A stretch of 64,000 bases of DNA from Escherichia phage LYE-01. The DNA lies in sequence record PQ303785.1; one strand, written 5' to 3'. Within the stretch, counting starts at the first letter, position 1. The number at the start of each line of letters is the position of its first letter. Below are positions 882 through 7,711 of this stretch, in pieces. The notes beneath the pieces are model-generated. The model was not told the origin of the DNA. It searched no databases and saw nothing but the letters and a program-made list of their open reading frames with translations. Made by a program: the position numbers and the translations under genes.

Positions 882-1142
882 TTGAGGAAGCTATTCGTGG
901 AAATAACTAAAGATCAGTTTTATCTTCTTCAAGATAAAGTAAGCGAAATTTATGAAATTGCTTATAGCAAAAATCGTGAAACTGTAAAAATAGAATCTAG
1001 TAAGTTGATGCTTCAATTAGAAGAAATTGAACGAGATTTAATTGCGTTAGAATTCTTTTGTGGTGAAGTTAAAACTGTTACAATCAATGATTACGTTTTA
1101 GGCGAAATTAGCTATCTTTATAAGGCGATTATTAATGATTGA
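882..1142 (+). CDS. hypothetical early protein (dexA.2 position)
   Basis: ORF track; track start is TTG 882, GTG 897 lies 8 nt after GAGGA; start uncertain. Confidence 0.45.
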   Translation: MRKLFVEITKDQFYLLQDKVSEIYEIAYSKNRETVKIESSKLMLQLEEIERDLIALEFFCGEVKTVTINDYVLGEISYLYKAIIND

Positions 1143-1377: not shown

Positions 1378-2060
1378 TGTTTGATTTTATTATAGATTTT
1401 GAAACAATGGGAAGCGGTGAAAAAGCAGCTGTTATTGATTTGGCTGTAATTGCTTTTGACCCTAACCCAGAAGTAGTTGAAACATTTGATGAATTAGTTT
1501 CACGCGGCATTAAAATCAAATTTGATTTAAAAAGCCAAAAAGGACATCGTCTTTTTACTAAAAGCACTATCGAATGGTGGAAGAATCAATCTCCTGAAGC
1601 TAGAAAAAATATTGCACCATCCGATGAAGATGTAAGCACTATCGATGGTATTGCAAAATTTAATGATTACATTAATGCACATAATATCGATCCTTGGAAA
1701 TCTCAAGGCTGGTGTCGTGGAATGTCATTTGATTTTCCAATTTTAGTCGATCTCATTCGTGATATTCAGCGTCTTAATGGTGTATCTGAGAATGAGCTTG
1801 ACACATTTAAGTTAGAACCATGTAAATTCTGGAATCAGCGTGATATTCGTACCAGAATTGAAGCACTTCTCCTTGTTCGTGATATGACCACATGTCCTCT
1901 TCCAAAGGGAACTTTAGATGGATTCGTTGCACATGATTCTATTCATGACTGTGCGAAAGACATCCTGATGATGAAGTATGCTTTGCGATATGCTATGGGT
2001 CTTGAAGATGCTCCGTCAGAGGAAGATTGCGATCCTCTATCTCTTCCAACAAAACGATAA
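1377..2060 (+). CDS. dexA: exonuclease A (DexA)
   Basis: 227 aa, N-terminus MFDFIIDFETMGSG (DEDD exonuclease-like), GAGGA SD; matches T4 DexA length and position. Confidence 0.85.
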   Translation: MFDFIIDFETMGSGEKAAVIDLAVIAFDPNPEVVETFDELVSRGIKIKFDLKSQKGHRLFTKSTIEWWKNQSPEARKNIAPSDEDVSTIDGIAKFNDYINAHNIDPWKSQGWCRGMSFDFPILVDLIRDIQRLNGVSENELDTFKLEPCKFWNQRDIRTRIEALLLVRDMTTCPLPKGTLDGFVAHDSIHDCAKDILMMKYALRYAMGLEDAPSEEDCDPLSLPTKR

Positions 2061-2066
2061 AAAGTT

Positions 2067-2096
2067 GTTTACTTCCTCGGTTAGTTGTGGTATTAT
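2067..2096 (+). promoter_or_regulatory. early promoter (GTTTAC, 18 bp, TATTAT)
   Basis: -35 at 2067-2072, -10 at 2091-2096. Confidence 0.6.
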
Positions 2097-2123
2097 AACA
2101 CCATAGCTACTGAGGATAATAAA

Positions 2124-2624
2124 ATGAAAATTTATCGTGTTGAATCATCTTTTAGTATTCTTAATTATGAAGATGCTATAACAATACGTCGAAATCTTTG
2201 TGTTCAAATAACGCCGTACAGGAGTATAATAGATTCATGGAGCGAAGAGTGGTTATTACACGTAGGTTATGATAGACCTAATTTTATGCATCATAGCGAT
2301 AATAATAAAAGAATTCCTTTACCACACGAAGATAAACTATTAGTTAAAAACGCTAATATAGTAATTAATACTAAGTTCAAGAAAGATTATGTTGGAGTAG
2401 AATATCATATTCCAGGATGGTTTATAGCTCTTTATCATTTTGCTTTCGCTAGTGAATATGATATGATGAGATGGTTCACACGAGAAGAGCGGGAAGAATT
2501 ATCTTCTAAAGGATTTTATCTTGCTGTATACGAAGTGCCAGATGACCAAGTTATCATTGGCAGGCGCCAAGTAATGTTCCGCAAATCACATGCTGAACTC
2601 GTAGATTTTATTGAAATGAGATAA
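2124..2624 (+). CDS. hypothetical protein (motB.2 position)
   Basis: Track ORF 2085-2624 begins with TTG inside the promoter; first ATG 2124 follows GAGGA. Confidence 0.5.
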   Translation: MKIYRVESSFSILNYEDAITIRRNLCVQITPYRSIIDSWSEEWLLHVGYDRPNFMHHSDNNKRIPLPHEDKLLVKNANIVINTKFKKDYVGVEYHIPGWFIALYHFAFASEYDMMRWFTREEREELSSKGFYLAVYEVPDDQVIIGRRQVMFRKSHAELVDFIEMR

Positions 2625-2625
2625 T

Positions 2626-3168
2626 ATGAAATTTAATTATACTCCTGAATACACACCAAATCCGGCAGCTAAACTGATTGATTTTGATGTTGTAAGCACT
2701 TATGTATGCCCTGTTAAACCACTGGAAATTAAGGAACCTACTATGACTACCGCTATTGAAATCGGCAAAACCTACAAACTGGTTGAAACTGAAATTAAAA
2801 CTAATGCCTTAATTTCCGGCCATAAAATTTTGACTGATGTTTTTGGCGAAGGCGAATTTACCGTTGAAGACTTTGAAAAAAGTAAATGGTTTACTAAATC
2901 TTATATTGTCCACGGTCGTCGTTTAGACAATAACAAAATAGAGAAAATCCTGGTTTATGAAGCAGAGTTCATCCTGTTCCAAGAAGTTGAAGAACAAGAC
3001 CCTACCGACCTTCTAACTCGTGCAGTAGCTATTAAGACCCCATTTATTTCGGTCTGCGGTTGGGTAACAGACCAGTGGGTTGAAGACGGTGTTGAACTTC
3101 TAAACGTTGTTCATGCAGGTGATTTTAGCGTAGTACCTCGTAGTGCGGTGGTAGCTATTTTAAATTAA
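2626..3168 (+). CDS. MotB paralog (motB.1 position)
   Basis: 180 aa; C-terminus CGWVTDQWVEDGVELLNVV closely matches C-terminus of the next ORF. Confidence 0.55.
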   Translation: MKFNYTPEYTPNPAAKLIDFDVVSTYVCPVKPLEIKEPTMTTAIEIGKTYKLVETEIKTNALISGHKILTDVFGEGEFTVEDFEKSKWFTKSYIVHGRRLDNNKIEKILVYEAEFILFQEVEEQDPTDLLTRAVAIKTPFISVCGWVTDQWVEDGVELLNVVHAGDFSVVPRSAVVAILN

Positions 3169-3170
3169 TA

Positions 3171-3200
3171 GTTTACAAACTCTTGGGACCGGAGTATAAT
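3171..3200 (+). promoter_or_regulatory. early promoter for motB
   Basis: GTTTAC 3171-3176, TATAAT 3195-3200; -10 sits in the loop of GGGACC/GGTCCC. Confidence 0.6.
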
Positions 3201-3244
3201 GGTCCCGCGGAGTATAAAATCTTTTTAACAAGTGAGAGATAACT

Positions 3245-3733
3245 ATGATTATTAATATTGGTGAAATTGCTCGTGTATCTGATAAATCTCGTTCTAAAGC
3301 AGCAGGAAAATTGGTCGAAATTGTAAGCATTCAGCTTAAACACGGCGTTAAAGATGAAGATTCTGAAGTAAAAGTGCGTATCATTCCTAAAGATGGAAAG
3401 TCTAAACCTCAGTTTGGCTATGTTCGTGCGAAATTTCTTGAATCTGCGTTTTTGAAAGCTGTTCCCGCTAAAGGAATTGAGACGATTGATACTTCGCATG
3501 TAGGTGTAGACTTTAAGTGGAAACTCGGTCAATCTATTAAGTTCATTGCTCCTTGCGAATTTAAATTCATTCCAGATGATGGAAAGGCTGTTTATACTCG
3601 TGCTATGTGTGGATACATTACCGATCAATGGGTAGAAGATGGTGTTAAGTTGTACAACGTGGTATTTTTAGGAACATACAAAGTCATTCCTGAAAGTTGG
3701 ATTAAACACTATAGAAATGCGCTCTATGCATAA
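3245..3733 (+). CDS. motB: MotB-like modifier of transcription
   Basis: 162 aa (T4 MotB length), early promoter upstream, position between dexA and gene 39. Confidence 0.65.
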   Translation: MIINIGEIARVSDKSRSKAAGKLVEIVSIQLKHGVKDEDSEVKVRIIPKDGKSKPQFGYVRAKFLESAFLKAVPAKGIETIDTSHVGVDFKWKLGQSIKFIAPCEFKFIPDDGKAVYTRAMCGYITDQWVEDGVKLYNVVFLGTYKVIPESWIKHYRNALYA

Positions 3734-3830
3734 AGTTTAAAATTTTTTCATAAAACTATATACATCAGTAGTTGATTATGGTACTATATCAATATCAACT
3801 ACTGATACAGAAAACAACTTGGAGAATAAA

Positions 3831-4100
3831 ATGGAAAACTTAATTATCATCGAACAATCTTTCAACGATTATGGTATGGCTTACGGTTATCGTGCGATAA
3901 TGGAAGATTCTCGTGGATGTGTTATCGATATTGCTGAATGTAAAGATTTACTGCAGCTTTTGAAGATTGTTCGCAAAAATTGGGATTGTGAAAACATTAA
4001 AGTTCGTGTTGTAACGGAAGAAGAAACTGTTTTTCATGATGTAAAATTTGCCAAAGGTGCTGCTACTCTTCTGAAACGCATCGCTCCACTGTTCAATTAA
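3831..4100 (+). CDS. hypothetical protein
   Basis: Track ORF starts TTG 3819; first ATG 3831 after GGAG. Confidence 0.45.
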   Translation: MENLIIIEQSFNDYGMAYGYRAIMEDSRGCVIDIAECKDLLQLLKIVRKNWDCENIKVRVVTEEETVFHDVKFAKGAATLLKRIAPLFN

Positions 4101-4113
4101 TGAGGAAATTGTA

Positions 4114-4329
4114 ATGAAACGTAAAATTGTTCAGAACTGCACTAATGACGAATTTGAAGATGTATTATTCGATCCAGATTTGGTAGTAGTTCAAAAGGAA
4201 CACACCATTAAGTTTACCCACTTGACTTCGGTTTATGTGTATGAAAAGGTTGGTGATAAACAACCAATTTACGGTGTATTTCGTGAAATTACTGAAGATG
4301 GCACAACTTACTGGAAGGAAATTTATTAA
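4114..4329 (+). CDS. hypothetical 71-aa protein, possibly Cef (tRNA-processing modifier)
   Basis: 71 aa equals T4 cef length; synteny only. Confidence 0.4.
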
Positions 4330-4748
4330 TGGCTATTAAATTTGAAGTTAATAAATGGTATCAATTTAAAAATAAACAAGCTCAAGAAAATTTTATTAAA
4401 GACCATACTGATAACGGAATCTATGCACGACGTTTAGGTATAGAACCTTTTAAAATTTTAGATGTTGACTATTACGGGCGTCCTACTAAAATTGTGACAT
4501 CTACTGGCACAATTGGATATTCAACATGTGGTACAGTCATTGACGAAAACTTTATCTGGCTCTCTACTAACGAAGCTGAGTTCTTTGATGAAGTTGAAAA
4601 TCCATATCAGGCATCTGAAGAGCAAGGGCAGGAAGAGCAAGAACAAATAGAAGATTTCACAGAATTCCCTGTCATGAAAGTTACTATTGAAAATAATGAA
4701 CAGGCATGGTCCTTGTATCAGATGTTGAAAGCACACTTTAAGGAATAA
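4329..4748 (+). CDS. hypothetical 139-aa protein, possibly GoF/ComC-alpha
   Basis: Size and position resemble T4 goF; acidic C-terminal tail. Confidence 0.4.
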
Positions 4749-4750
4749 TT

Positions 4751-4927
4751 ATGCCAATGTATGATTATAAATGCCAATCCGAAGATTGTGGGCATGAATA
4801 TGAAAAAATTAAAAAGATTTCTGAACGAGAAAATGATGTTTGCCCTAAATGTCATCGTTTGTCTACTCGTCGGCCTTCTGCTCCTAAGCATGTGAATGGT
4901 GGATTTTACGACTTACTTAAAGGGTAA
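4751..4927 (+). CDS. small zinc-ribbon protein (58 aa, two CxxC pairs)
   Basis: Not in ORF track (under 60 aa); ATG 4751 to TAA 4925-4927; CQSEDC ... CPKC. Confidence 0.5.
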   Translation: MPMYDYKCQSEDCGHEYEKIKKISERENDVCPKCHRLSTRRPSAPKHVNGGFYDLLKG

Positions 4928-4929
4928 TT

Positions 4930-5301
4930 ATGTTTAAAATCGGTAAGAAATATCGTGTTCGCGAAGGTGAAGAAAAGAAATATCTACTTTCTTCTATTTA
5001 TAGGAATAGTTCTATTAATACTGTAATATCTACAAGCGAATTTATCGTTGAAGATATGAAAGGTCATAATGTTACAATGATTAGTACAGCATCTGGAAAT
5101 GATGGAAAAATTCTTCACAGCTTTCAGAGTAATGTTCTAATTTATGATGAAGAATTTGACTTCTTCGAAGAAGTTACAGAAGATTTTGATTTTGGATGCA
5201 CCATCACTATGAAATCTGGTGACCCTCTTTCATTTACGGTTAAAGATGAAAGAAGTCGCTTGAGAATTATTAGTCTTCTTCAAGCCATTAAATTTGAGTG
5301 A
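4930..5301 (+). CDS. hypothetical protein
   Basis: ORF track, ATG 4930. Confidence 0.5.
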   Translation: MFKIGKKYRVREGEEKKYLLSSIYRNSSINTVISTSEFIVEDMKGHNVTMISTASGNDGKILHSFQSNVLIYDEEFDFFEEVTEDFDFGCTITMKSGDPLSFTVKDERSRLRIISLLQAIKFE

Positions 5302-5608: not shown

Positions 5609-5635
5609 ATTCCCGAAACCAAACGAGGATAAGTG

Positions 5636-7453
5636 ATGATTAAGAATGAAATTAAAATTCTGAGCGATATTGAACATATCAAAAAGCGTAGCGGCATGTA
5701 CATTGGCTCTTCCGCTAATGAAATGCATGAGCGCTTTCTGTTTGGTAAATGGGAAAGTGTTCAGTATGTACCTGGTCTTGTTAAGCTTATTGATGAAATT
5801 ATTGATAACTCAGTAGATGAAGGTATTCGTACTAAGTTTAAATTCGCAAATAAAATTAATGTTACTATCAAAAACAATCAAGTAACAGTTGAAGATAACG
5901 GTCGTGGTATTCCACAAGCGATGGTTAAAACACCTACCGGTGAAGAAATTCCTGGTCCAGTTGCTGCATGGACTATTCCAAAGGCAGGTGGTAACTTTGG
6001 TGATGATAAAGAACGCGTCACTGGTGGTATGAATGGTGTTGGTTCTAGTTTAACTAACATTTTTTCTGTGATGTTTGTCGGTGAAACTGGCGACGGTCAA
6101 AATAATATTGTAGTTCGTTGTTCAAATGGCATGGAAAATAAATCATGGGAAGATATTCCTGGAAAATGGAAAGGAACACGTGTTACTTTCATTCCTGATT
6201 TTATGTCATTTGAAACTAATGAGCTATCTCAGGTTTATCTTGACATTACACTAGATCGTCTCCAGACACTTGCGGTAGTTTATCCTGATATTCAATTTAC
6301 CTTTAATGGTAAAAAGGTTCAGGGTAATTTTAAGAAATATGCACGCCAATATGATGAACACGCTATCGTTCAAGAACAAGAAAATTGTTCTATTGCGGTT
6401 GGTCGTTCACCTGATGGTTTTCGTCAATTAACATACGTTAATAACATTCATACTAAGAATGGTGGCCATCACATTGACTGCGTTATGGATGATATTTGTG
6501 AAGACCTTATTCCACAAATCAAACGTAAGTTCAAAATTGATGTAACTAAAGCACGTGTTAAAGAATGTTTGACTATCGTTATGTTTGTTCGTGATATGAA
6601 AAACATGCGATTTGATTCTCAAACTAAAGAGCGTTTGACTTCTCCATTTGGTGAAATTCGTAGTCATATTCAGCTTGATGCTAAAAAGATTTCACGTGCT
6701 ATTTTAAATAATGAAGCAATTTTAATGCCAATCATTGAAGCTGCCTTGGCTCGTAAATTGGCGGCAGAAAAAGCAGCAGAAACTAAAGCAGCTAAAAAGG
6801 CTTCTAAAGCCAAGGTTCATAAACATATTAAAGCGAATCTTTGTGGTAAAGATGCTGATACTACTCTTTTCTTGACTGAGGGTGATTCTGCTATCGGATA
6901 TCTTATTGATGTTCGTGATAAAGAACTTCATGGTGGTTATCCATTGCGTGGTAAAGTTCTCAACAGTTGGGGTATGTCTTATGCTGATATGCTTAAAAAC
7001 AAAGAACTGTTTGATATTTGCGCAATCACTGGATTGGTTCTTGGTGAAAAGGCTGAAAACTTAAATTATCATAATATTGCAATTATGACCGATGCTGACC
7101 ATGATGGTCTAGGAAGCATTTATCCTTCTCTGCTCGGATTTTTTAGTAATTGGCCAGAACTGTTTGAACAAGGAAGAATTCGCTTCGTCAAAACTCCTGT
7201 AATCATCGCTCAGGTCGGTAAAAAACAAGAATGGTTTTATACAGTCGCTGAATATGAGAGTGCTAAAGATGCTCTACCTAAACATAGCATCCGTTATATT
7301 AAAGGACTTGGCTCTTTGGAAAAATCTGAATATCGTGAGATGATTCAAAACCCAGTATATGATGTTGTTAAACTTCCTGAGAATTGGAAAGAGCTTTTTG
7401 AAATGCTCATGGGAGATAATGCTGACCTTCGTAAAGAATGGATGAGCCAGTAG
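5636..7453 (+). CDS. 39: DNA topoisomerase II large subunit, uninterrupted 39+60 type
   Basis: 605 aa; GyrB-like ATPase N-terminus through Toprim region ending EWMSQ; DADHDG-LGSIY is continuous. Confidence 0.9.
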   Translation: MIKNEIKILSDIEHIKKRSGMYIGSSANEMHERFLFGKWESVQYVPGLVKLIDEIIDNSVDEGIRTKFKFANKINVTIKNNQVTVEDNGRGIPQAMVKTPTGEEIPGPVAAWTIPKAGGNFGDDKERVTGGMNGVGSSLTNIFSVMFVGETGDGQNNIVVRCSNGMENKSWEDIPGKWKGTRVTFIPDFMSFETNELSQVYLDITLDRLQTLAVVYPDIQFTFNGKKVQGNFKKYARQYDEHAIVQEQENCSIAVGRSPDGFRQLTYVNNIHTKNGGHHIDCVMDDICEDLIPQIKRKFKIDVTKARVKECLTIVMFVRDMKNMRFDSQTKERLTSPFGEIRSHIQLDAKKISRAILNNEAILMPIIEAALARKLAAEKAAETKAAKKASKAKVHKHIKANLCGKDADTTLFLTEGDSAIGYLIDVRDKELHGGYPLRGKVLNSWGMSYADMLKNKELFDICAITGLVLGEKAENLNYHNIAIMTDADHDGLGSIYPSLLGFFSNWPELFEQGRIRFVKTPVIIAQVGKKQEWFYTVAEYESAKDALPKHSIRYIKGLGSLEKSEYREMIQNPVYDVVKLPENWKELFEMLMGDNADLRKEWMSQ

Positions 7454-7482
7454 TTTACTTTACCACAAGGATGTGGTATAAT
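7453..7482 (+). promoter_or_regulatory. early promoter upstream of rIIA.1/rIIA
   Basis: GTTTAC 7453-7458, TATAAT 7477-7482. Confidence 0.65.
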
Positions 7483-7507
7483 TAATTGGGCAAATGAGGA
7501 TATTGAA

Positions 7508-7711
7508 ATGAAATCATATAAAGTAAATTTAGAACTTTTTGATAAAGCAGTTCATCGAGAATATAGAATCATTCAACGCTTTTTCGATATGGGAGAAGCT
7601 GAAGAGTTTAAAAACCGCTTTAAGGATATTAGAGATAAAATTCAATCCGACACCGCAACTAAAGATGAACTACTAGAAGTTGCTGAAGTTATTAAACGCA
7701 ATATGAATTAA
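7508..7711 (+). CDS. hypothetical protein (rIIA.1 position)
   Basis: ORF track, 67 aa, downstream of an early promoter. Confidence 0.5.

What the first reader, a model, noticed from the sequence alone, without database searches (positions are those of the whole stretch)
2626..3733. MotB and its upstream neighbour share a C-terminal module
The ORFs at 2626-3168 and 3245-3733 (motB position) end with near-identical segments: CGWVTDQWVEDGVELLNVV...VVP versus CGYITDQWVEDGVKLYNVV...VIP. The N-terminal parts differ. This suggests a tandem duplication or domain swap producing two proteins with a common, possibly DNA-binding, module and different partner domains.
Basis: seen in the sequence. Interest (0 to 1): 0.45.

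Follow-up and report, generated by a model that had tools for sequence, protein, structure and literature searches.

The report
MotB and MotB.1 share a C-terminal barrel
Two neighbouring early genes of a T4-like phage, motB and the gene just upstream (motB.1), really do end in the same small folded domain behind different front domains, but this was already published in 2021, so the finding is correct and ordinary.

Summary
ORF 2626-3168 (180 aa) and motB (3245-3733, 162 aa) share 19/32 identical residues (BLASTP E=1e-12; z=17 against shuffles). Profile comparison extends the match to the whole C-terminal domain: 54 columns, probability 98.8%, E=9e-17. The upstream ORF is the T4 motB.1 homologue.

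The relationship is already published. Patterson-West et al. 2021 (PMC7827196) reported that MotB and MotB.1 share a C-terminal domain (CTD), differ in the N-terminal domain (NTD), and probably arose by duplication.

What I add:
- AlphaFold2 models show a five-stranded barrel with SH3/Tudor-like topology, not the OB-fold inferred from HHpred.
- The conserved 32-aa core is acidic in all 26 family sequences examined, and MotB's positive charge sits mainly in its KOW-like NTD. The shared core is therefore unlikely to be the DNA-binding surface.
- Third codon positions are saturated, so the duplication is old and not a gene conversion.
- More distant T4-like phages, such as PEi20, carry a single KOW+CTD gene at this locus.
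- The upstream copy's NTD is GoF/LSm-like.

In passing: the T4 reference sequence (NC_000866) has one extra G in motB.1. This cuts off the last 28 aa of the module. 13 other T4/RB55/RB59 records are intact.

The parts
2626..3168 (+). motB.1 homologue (long, GoF-type variant), 180 aa. Its start follows the motB.2 stop (TAA 2622-2624) after 1 nt.
   Evidence: ORF list. phrog_2333 matches full length, E=5e-83. The ORF occupies the T4 motB.1 position between motB.2 and motB. 63% identical to intact T4T MotB.1 over aa 103-180.
2626..2748 (+). Predicted disordered N-terminal segment (aa 1-41). It carries the conserved linear motif IDFDVVSTYVCPVKPLEIKE (aa 18-37, nt 2677-2736). An internal ATG at 2743 (M40) with AAGGA 7 nt upstream is a possible alternative start, giving a 141-aa form.
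   Evidence: pLDDT below 50 for residues 1-41. The motif D-x-D-V/I-x-S/H-M-Y..P..P-L recurs in 12 of about 25 family representatives, there in inter-domain linkers. 141-aa annotations exist (P0108; P0111, phage PP01). Sequence read.
2749..2991 (+). N-terminal GoF/MotB.1/Frd.2-type (LSm- or SH3-like) domain, aa 42-122
   Evidence: phrog_622 E=3.8e-6 over aa 44-125. BLASTP E=7e-5 to window ORF 4930-5301. phmmer E=8e-4. AF2 shows strands plus one helix, pLDDT 77-90. The family is described in PMC12152347.
3001..3165 (+). Shared C-terminal domain of the upstream protein, aa 126-180: a five-stranded small beta-barrel
   Evidence: hhalign aa 126-178 with MotB aa 90-156, probability 98.8%. AF2 strands 133-137, 142-153, 156-163, 166-171, a 3-10 turn, then 175-179; pLDDT about 90.
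3049..3144 (+). Highly conserved 32-aa core (aa 142-173), SVCGWVTDQWVEDGVELLNVVHAGDFSVVPRS.
   Evidence: BLASTP. Net charge -4, pI 4.1.
3172..3200 (+). Sigma-70/T4-early-type promoter-like site TTTACA-17-TATAAT in the 76-bp gap upstream of motB. The inverted repeat GGGACC/GGTCCC (3185-3206) brackets the -10 hexamer.
   Evidence: 11/12 consensus match, the best in the region. Inverted repeat I8. The same sequence is present in T4. Function is inferred only.
3245..3733 (+). motB, 162 aa
   Evidence: Pfam PF17613 E=8e-109, full length. phrog_1671 E=9e-77. Near-identical to T4 MotB.
3245..3445 (+). MotB N-terminal KOW/SH3-like domain, aa 1-67; basic (aa 1-69: net +5, pI 9.75)
   Evidence: AF2 strands 8-11, 23-30, 41-46, 56-61, 65-67. 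Charge. Pfam KOW hit on the relative P0150. HHpred KOW assignment in PMC7827196.
3512..3712 (+). MotB C-terminal domain, aa 90-156, homologous to the upstream gene's CTD. It has a longer beta1-beta2 hairpin (14-aa insertion).
   Evidence: hhalign. AF2 strands 97-108, 116-131, 134-141, 144-149, a 3-10 turn, then 153-156; pLDDT 90-95.
3602..3697 (+). Conserved 32-aa core in MotB (aa 120-151), AMCGYITDQWVEDGVKLYNVVFLGTYKVIPES
   Evidence: BLASTP. Net charge -2, pI 4.3.

Best explanation
The window is a Tequatrovirus (T4-like phage). ORF 2626-3168 is the motB.1 homologue and 3245-3733 is motB. They are paralogues.

Proposed history (inferred): an ancestral single gene encoded a basic KOW/SH3-like N-domain, a flexible linker and a small C-terminal beta-barrel. 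This gene was duplicated in tandem. In the upstream copy the N-domain was then replaced by a GoF-type LSm/SH3-like domain.

The shared segment is strands beta2-beta5 of a roughly 55-67-residue five-stranded barrel with SH3/Tudor-like topology. Selection on the protein has kept it nearly unchanged while synonymous sites saturated.

Proposed function (inferred): the invariant face (T/S-D-Q-W-V/I-E-D/E-G ... L-x-N-V/I-V ... G ... V-x-P) is acidic and aromatic, and the MotB.1-type proteins are acidic overall. I therefore propose that the shared barrel is a common partner-binding or self-association module, not the DNA-contacting surface. It would give both proteins the same docking or oligomerisation function. 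The N-domains would then supply different activities: MotB's basic KOW-like domain, with its basic beta1-beta2 hairpin, would give the known tight non-specific DNA binding, and MotB.1's LSm-like domain would give a still unknown, possibly RNA-related, activity.

Shown: homology, extent, fold class, charge distribution, duplication history. Inferred: that the barrel binds a partner or oligomerises, and the division of labour between domains.
For: - Identity of the locus: 95-98% DNA identity to many Tequatrovirus genomes; gene order matches T4 and T4T.
- Homology.
- Old duplication under purifying selection: nucleotide identity in the core is only 56%; third positions match at 9/32; 12 of the 19 identical residues use different codons.
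- Single-copy state: PEi20 has one KOW+linker+CTD gene between motB.2 and cef. The 12 best Klebsiella, Edwardsiella, Kosakonia and Enterobacter phage records each have one place.
- Modularity: among 1.84 billion representatives only 31 hits, about 25 of them genuine. All genuine hits are 43-251-aa proteins that appear to be of T4-like phage origin (the library carries no annotation) and carry the same CTD. It sits behind KOW, a GoF-like domain, two GoF-like domains, an extra domain plus a GoF-like domain, or the T4-type NTD.
- Charge: the core is net -1 to -6 in all 26 sequences. MotB NTD is net +5, pI 9.75. The whole MotB.1-type protein is pI 4.8.
- Published biochemistry: MotB binds DNA tightly and non-specifically and is basic (PMC6070864; PMC7827196).
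Against: - No experiment or complex prediction here tests partner binding or oligomerisation.
- Acidic net charge of a 32-aa core does not exclude a local basic or aromatic nucleic-acid-binding face. Many SH3-like barrels (KOW, Sac7d-like, Tudor) bind nucleic acids.
- The 2018 paper reported no MotB-H-NS interaction without DNA, so no direct protein partner is known.
- The direction of the NTD replacement is inferred from one outgroup locus and from the phage records with a single match.
Confidence: 0.6

Rival explanations
1. The shared C-terminal domain is an OB-fold (cold-shock-like) nucleic-acid-binding domain, as suggested in the literature. It gives both MotB and MotB.1 their ability to bind DNA or RNA, and the N-domains modulate that.
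Confidence: 0.25
2. The barrel specifically mediates MotB-MotB.1 hetero-dimerisation or MotB homo-oligomerisation. This would bridge DNA-bound MotB molecules (nucleoid compaction) or link MotB to the LSm-like MotB.1. It is a narrower version of the best explanation.
For: The two genes co-occur in many genomes: 767 phage records with 1174 matching places, and 40 genomes reported in PMC7827196. The core is very strongly conserved between the paralogues. From my own knowledge of Son et al. 2021 NAR, which I could not read here, MotB compacts DNA. Compaction usually needs bridging or oligomerisation.
Against: Phages with a single copy exist, so hetero-dimerisation cannot be the ancestral role. AlphaFold3 gave no confident homomultimers for GoF or MotB.1 (PMC12152347), but that work used the truncated T4 MotB.1. 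Nothing was tested here.
Confidence: 0.15
3. The near-identity is kept by recent gene conversion or recombination between the adjacent genes, not by selection on an old duplicate.
For: The genes are adjacent and co-oriented. T4-like phages recombine intensely (general knowledge).
Against: The core is only 56% identical at the DNA level. Third codon positions match at 9/32, about the random level, and 12 of 19 identical residues use different codons.
Confidence: 0.02
4. The similarity is a chance or compositional match of a short motif.
For: An 11-residue look-alike (GYATEQWVEDK) occurs in unrelated tail-fibre repeat proteins. Short pieces of the motif can therefore recur.
Against: z=17 against shuffles. 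BLASTP E=1e-12. hhalign probability 98.8% over 54 columns. The predicted folds match.
Confidence: 0.01

Closest known systems
T4 MotB / MotB.1 pair as described by Patterson-West et al. 2021 (Viruses 13:84, PMC7827196)
   Same: Same two genes and same locus. The paper reaches the same conclusion: conserved CTD, different NTDs, probable duplication, and several NTD 'categories' among 102 phage homologues.
   Different: The window's MotB.1 is the 180-aa variant with a GoF-like NTD and a disordered N-terminal motif, not the T4 type. Here the CTD models as an SH3/Tudor-like barrel rather than an OB-fold, and its conserved core is acidic. The paper's T4 MotB.1 comes from the reference annotation, which is truncated by a 1-nt insertion.
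GoF / MotB.1 / Frd.2 LSm-like fold family (Kim et al. 2025, PMC12152347)
   Same: The N-domain of the upstream ORF (aa 42-122) belongs to this family by sequence (phrog_622 E=4e-6; BLASTP E=7e-5 to the window's GoF-like ORF). By AF2 it is a bent beta-sheet plus a helix.
   Different: That paper describes the CTDs as 'of various structures' and does not connect MotB.1's CTD to MotB. The window protein is closer to the phrog_622 branch, which includes the window's goF and its GoF-like 123-aa ORF, than T4 MotB.1 is.
SH3-like small beta-barrels: Tudor, chromo, PWWP, BAH ('Royal family'), KOW domains of NusG/Spt5, and the UvrD/PcrA C-terminal Tudor-like domain
Tandem two-barrel translation factors eIF5A / EF-P (SH3/KOW domain followed by an OB domain)

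Membership tests
Pfam PF17613 (motB, Modifier of transcription) | Score above the gathering threshold (25 bits) against the 162-position model | tested here: met
   MotB scores 361 bits, positions 1-162/162. The upstream ORF scores 35.2 bits but covers only model positions 120-153. MotB is therefore a full member, and the upstream ORF is a member through the C-terminal module only.
MotB.1 family (phrog_2333; 'Category 2/4' of PMC7827196) | Full-length profile match, position immediately upstream of motB, and the MotB.1-type CTD signature DPTDLL..AV.I..PF..CGWVTDQW(I/V)EDGVELLNVVH | tested here: met
   phrog_2333 E=5e-83 over aa 1-180. Synteny motB.2 - ORF - motB. The signature is present.
GoF/MotB.1/Frd.2 LSm-like NTD family | Sequence or profile similarity of the N-domain to GoF-type domains, and a bent five-stranded antiparallel sheet | tested here: met
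   phrog_622 E=3.8e-6. BLASTP E=7e-5 to ORF 4930-5301. The AF2 NTD has strands 49-52, 77-85, 92-99, 105-111 and 118-121 plus helix 60-73. Direct BLASTP to the window's GoF is not significant, E=0.39.
OB-fold (cold-shock DNA-binding-like, SCOPe b.40.4.5), for the shared CTD | Five-stranded Greek-key barrel with an alpha-helix or long crossover between beta3 and beta4 | tested here: not met
SH3-like small beta-barrel (Tudor/KOW/chromo superfold), for the shared CTD | beta1-beta5 meander barrel with a 3-10 helix between beta4 and beta5, and structural similarity to SH3-like domains | tested here: met
Tudor/'Royal family' readers | Aromatic cage that binds a methylated ligand | not testable with these tools
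   Conserved W/F/Y residues exist (W146, W151, F167 in the upstream protein), but no coordinates were available to check their geometry.
KOW domain (PF00467), for the MotB N-domain | KOW motif match | tested here: inconclusive
   The window's MotB gives no Pfam KOW hit at E<=1. The distant relative P0150 does: E=1.8e-5, 24.8 bits against a cut-off of 22.3. HHpred support is reported in PMC7827196.

The most novel reading that the evidence does not exclude
The shared acidic SH3/Tudor-like barrel is a dedicated docking or oligomerisation domain. Together with the conserved disordered motif D-x-D-V-x-S-M-Y..P..P-L, it would recruit different nucleic-acid-binding heads to one common host or phage target: a basic KOW head in MotB and LSm-like heads in MotB.1. 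The family would then be a modular phage 'adaptor' system in which MotB.1 and MotB act on the same complex. All published MotB.1 plasmid experiments would have missed this, because the T4 reference-derived construct lacks the last 28 residues of the barrel.
Probability: 0.2. Interest if true: 0.5.

Novelty: already known. Interest (0 to 1): 0.2.

Why it matters
The central finding repeats a published result, so it adds little on its own.

The refinements could redirect experiments on two abundant, conserved but functionally obscure T4 early proteins. If the shared barrel is a docking or oligomerisation module and not the DNA-binding part, domain-dissection experiments should look for DNA binding in MotB's KOW-like N-domain and for partners of the barrel.

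The practical point with the most immediate use is the T4 reference error. The annotated 119-aa (13.8 kDa) MotB.1 (NP_049627, UniProt P39415) lacks the final 28 residues of this conserved domain. Constructs, structure predictions and negative results based on it, such as those in PMC12152347, may not reflect the real 143-aa protein.

Tried and rejected
- **Solved structures.** Sequence searches of the PDB with both proteins and with a family profile found no relative. The only weak hits were SH3 domains matching the MotB N-domain.
- **NCBIfam.** No hits.
- **Gene conversion.** Rejected because of third-position saturation.
- **Programmed +1 frameshift in T4 motB.1.** Considered briefly and rejected. 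The extra G is present only in AF158101.6/NC_000866.4. It is absent from 13 other T4/RB55/RB59 records and from the window. A sequencing error or a strain-specific mutation is the simple reading.
- **Long proteins among the representative hits (454-921 aa).** They share only the tail-fibre repeat GYATEQWVEDKGYLT, which Pfam calls PTR or Phage_tail_C. They lack the rest of the domain, so I treated them as short-motif look-alikes.
- **The gene name.** I first assumed the upstream ORF was dexA.2. The T4 annotation shows it is motB.1. dexA.1 and dexA.2 lie between dexA and dda.
- **Son et al. 2021 NAR (PMC8450097).** The paper is not held, so what I say about DNA compaction rests on memory.
- **First pairwise MAFFT alignment outside the core (A1).** It was unreliable. 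The hhalign result replaces it.

Full report
**1. What the region is**

The window is a Tequatrovirus (T4-like phage) genome segment, read opposite to T4 numbering. Bases 2000-4400 are 94-98% identical to many Escherichia and Shigella T4-like phages. The gene order is as follows:

| Coordinates | Gene |
|---|---|
| 210-875 | dda (C-terminal part) |
| 882-1142 | dexA.2 |
| 1135-1377 | dexA.1 |
| 1377-2060 | dexA |
| 2085-2624 | motB.2 |
| 2626-3168 | ORF of interest |
| 3245-3733 | motB |
| 3819-4100 | 93-aa ORF |
| 4114-4329 | cef |
| 4329-4748 | goF |
| 4751-4927 | zinc-ribbon gene 39.2 |
| 4930-5301 | GoF-like 123-aa ORF |
| 5633-7453 | gene 39 |

The upstream neighbour of motB is therefore the homologue of T4 motB.1. 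It matches phrog_2333 at E=5e-83 over its full length.

**2.

- The two proteins share 19/32 identical and 26/32 similar residues without gaps: aa 142-173 against MotB aa 120-151, BLASTP E=1e-12.
- The Smith-Waterman score is 116, against 30 +/- 5 for 2000 shuffles, z=17.
- Pfam's motB model hits the upstream ORF above its gathering threshold, but only over model positions 120-153.
- The PHROG profiles cross-hit over 55-75 residues.
- A profile-profile comparison of the two subfamilies aligns 54 columns: upstream ORF aa 126-178 with MotB aa 90-156, probability 98.8%, E=9e-17. MotB has a 14-residue insertion.
- A six-frame HMM scan finds no third copy in the 64-kb window.

**3. It lies in a folded domain**

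AlphaFold2 models were built on alignments of diverse family representatives.

- *Upstream protein* (mean pLDDT 75.6): a disordered N-terminus (aa 1-41, pLDDT below 50), an N-domain (aa 42-121) and a confident C-domain (pLDDT about 90). The C-domain has strands 133-137, 142-153, 156-163 and 166-171, a 3-10 turn, then strand 175-179.
- *MotB* (mean pLDDT 82.4): an N-domain (aa 1-67), a disordered linker (aa 70-83) and a C-domain (pLDDT 90-95). The C-domain has strands 97-108, 116-131, 134-141 and 144-149, a 3-10 turn, then strand 153-156.
- *Topology:* tight hairpins, no helix between strands 3 and 4, and a 3-10 turn before the last strand. This is the SH3-like small-barrel signature, not the OB signature.
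- *EF-P/eIF5A:* they appear only for the MotB.1-type model, with high rmsd.
- *Limitation:* I could not inspect the coordinates. Individual hits cannot be assigned to a domain, and the fold call rests on the secondary-structure order plus the uniform hit list.

**4. Family and history**

- *Family size.* A profile of the two C-domains searched against 1.84 billion 50%-identity representatives found only 31 proteins at E<=1e-3. About 25 are genuine, all of 43-251 aa, and all appear to be T4-like phage proteins.
- *Architectures*:
  - KOW-like N-domain + CTD (MotB type);
  - KOW + linker + MotB.1-type CTD (P0127, P0129, P0134, P0138, P0140, P0141, P0147);
  - GoF-like domain + CTD (the window, P0122);
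  - an extra N-domain + GoF-like + CTD (P0123);
  - two GoF-like domains + CTD (P0124);
  - T4-type N-domain + CTD (P0128, P0133).
- *N-domain of the window protein.* It is GoF-like: phrog_622 E=4e-6, and BLASTP E=7e-5 to the window's GoF-like ORF at 4930-5301.
- *Single-copy outgroup.* In Edwardsiella phage PEi20 (Kanagawavirus) the locus holds a single KOW+linker+CTD gene between motB.2 and cef. The best Klebsiella, Kosakonia and Enterobacter phage records also have one matching place each.
- *Age of the duplication.* Core DNA identity between the two window copies is 56%. Third codon positions match at 9/32, and 12 of the 19 identical residues use different codons. The duplication is therefore old and the peptide is held by purifying selection. 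Gene conversion is excluded.
- *Most economical history:* tandem duplication of a KOW-linker-barrel gene, followed by replacement of the N-domain in the upstream copy.

**5. Likely function**

- Charges computed here:

| Segment | Net charge | pI |
|---|---|---|
| MotB N-domain (aa 1-69) | +5 | 9.75 |
| MotB whole C-domain (aa 88-162) | +2 | 8.58 |
| Shared 32-aa core, all 26 family sequences | -1 to -6 | 4.0-4.9 |
| Window MotB.1-type protein, whole | -10 | 4.8 |

- The invariant residues are D, W, G, L, N, V, G and V, with Q and E nearly invariant. They form an acidic and aromatic signature.
- I therefore consider it more likely that the shared barrel is a common docking or self-association module. 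On this view MotB's DNA binding resides mainly in the KOW-like N-domain. This is inference, and nothing here tests binding.
- The rival is the published suggestion that the CTD is an OB-type nucleic-acid-binding domain. It remains possible, and I put it at about 0.25.

**6. Comparison with the literature**

- Patterson-West et al. [quoted passage not shown] They propose duplication, classify 102 homologues into four categories by NTD, and note a 29-aa remnant in RB69.
- Kim et al. 2025 place the MotB.1 NTD in an LSm-like family with GoF and Frd.2.
- Some genome annotations already label both genes 'MotB-like transcriptional regulator'.
- The finding is therefore already known.
- The increments here are the SH3-like rather than OB topology, the acidic core, the saturation of synonymous sites, the single-copy outgroup locus and the catalogue of architectures.

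**7. Side observation of practical weight**

- The T4 reference annotation gives MotB.1 as 119 aa, ending ...GGWVTDQWIGRWR*.
- The next reading frame continues EDGVELLNVVHAGEYSVVPRSAVVAILN*.
- Alignment shows one extra G in NC_000866 (ATTGGAAGAT) relative to T4T and the window (ATT-GAAGAT).
- tblastn with the repaired 143-aa protein gives one uninterrupted 100%-identical match in 13 other T4, RB55 and RB59 records. It gives a two-piece match only in AF158101.6/NC_000866.4.
- T4T annotates a 143-aa MotB.1.
- UniProt P39415 is the 13.8-kDa truncated form.
- Kim et al. 2025 cloned from NC_000866.4 and report a 13.8-kDa monomer. Neither paper mentions a frameshift.
- The plasmid-expressed MotB.1 in that work therefore probably lacked most of the conserved barrel.

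**8. Verdict**

Interest is low (0.2). It is raised slightly by the reference-sequence error and by the revised view of the shared domain.

Noticed in passing
L002 (NC_000866.4) 4292-4651 minus strand = T4 7291-7650; compare window 3086-3095: The T4 reference motB.1 has one extra G (ATTGGAAGAT against ATT-GAAGAT). This truncates the protein to 119 aa and removes the last 28 residues of the MotB-like barrel. 13 other T4/RB55/RB59 records and T4T encode an intact 143-aa protein. UniProt P39415 and the constructs of PMC12152347 appear to use the truncated form.
   Followed up: yes
window 2677-2736 (aa 18-37 of ORF 2626-3168): A conserved linear motif (I/V)D-x-D-(V/I)-x-(S/H)-M-Y-x-T-(P/L)-x-x-P-(L/I) lies in a segment predicted to be disordered. 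It recurs in 12 of about 25 family representatives, but there it sits in the linker between the N-domain and the barrel (e.g. P0129 VDTDVASMYLTPGLPL). It looks like a short docking motif. No partner is known.
   Followed up: partly
window 882-1142 and 1135-1377: dexA.2 and dexA.1 are also tandem paralogues: 29% identity over the full length, BLASTP E=3e-8. This dispensable region holds several local duplications.
   Followed up: partly
window 4329-4748, 4930-5301 and 2749-2991: There are three GoF-type (phrog_622) domains within 3 kb: goF, a 123-aa GoF-like ORF that has no counterpart in the T4 annotation, and the N-domain of the motB.1 homologue.
   Followed up: partly
window 3172-3206: A strong early-type promoter match (TTTACA-17-TATAAT, 11/12) lies upstream of motB. 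A perfect 6-bp inverted repeat GGGACC/GGTCCC brackets the -10 hexamer. The same sequence is conserved in T4. Its role (hairpin in the motB.1 3' end, or promoter regulation) was not examined.
   Followed up: no
P0144 (43 aa, metagenomic representative): MKIYRVESSFSILDYEDGVELLNVVHAGDFSVVPRSAVVAILN joins the N-terminus of MotB.2 (window 2124 onward, MKIYRVESSFSILNYED) to the tail of MotB.1. This is apparently a deletion that removed most of both genes at a YED/EDG junction. It is comparable to the 29-aa RB69 remnant reported in PMC7827196.
   Followed up: no
P0137, P0145, P0146, P0148, P0149, P0151: Phage tail-fibre repeat proteins carry the repeat GYATEQWVEDKGYLT, which resembles the core GYITDQWVEDGVKLYN. 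One of them (P0146) scores above Pfam's whole-protein cut-off for motB. This is probably a short-motif coincidence, but it can create false 'MotB' annotations.
   Followed up: partly
window 2085-2624 (motB.2) and 3819-4100: motB.2 gives only a weak Pfam SRA-domain hit (E=0.09), and other records label it variously 'transcriptional regulator' or 'exonuclease'. The 93-aa ORF between motB and cef (phrog_3720) has no annotated counterpart at that position in T4.
   Followed up: no
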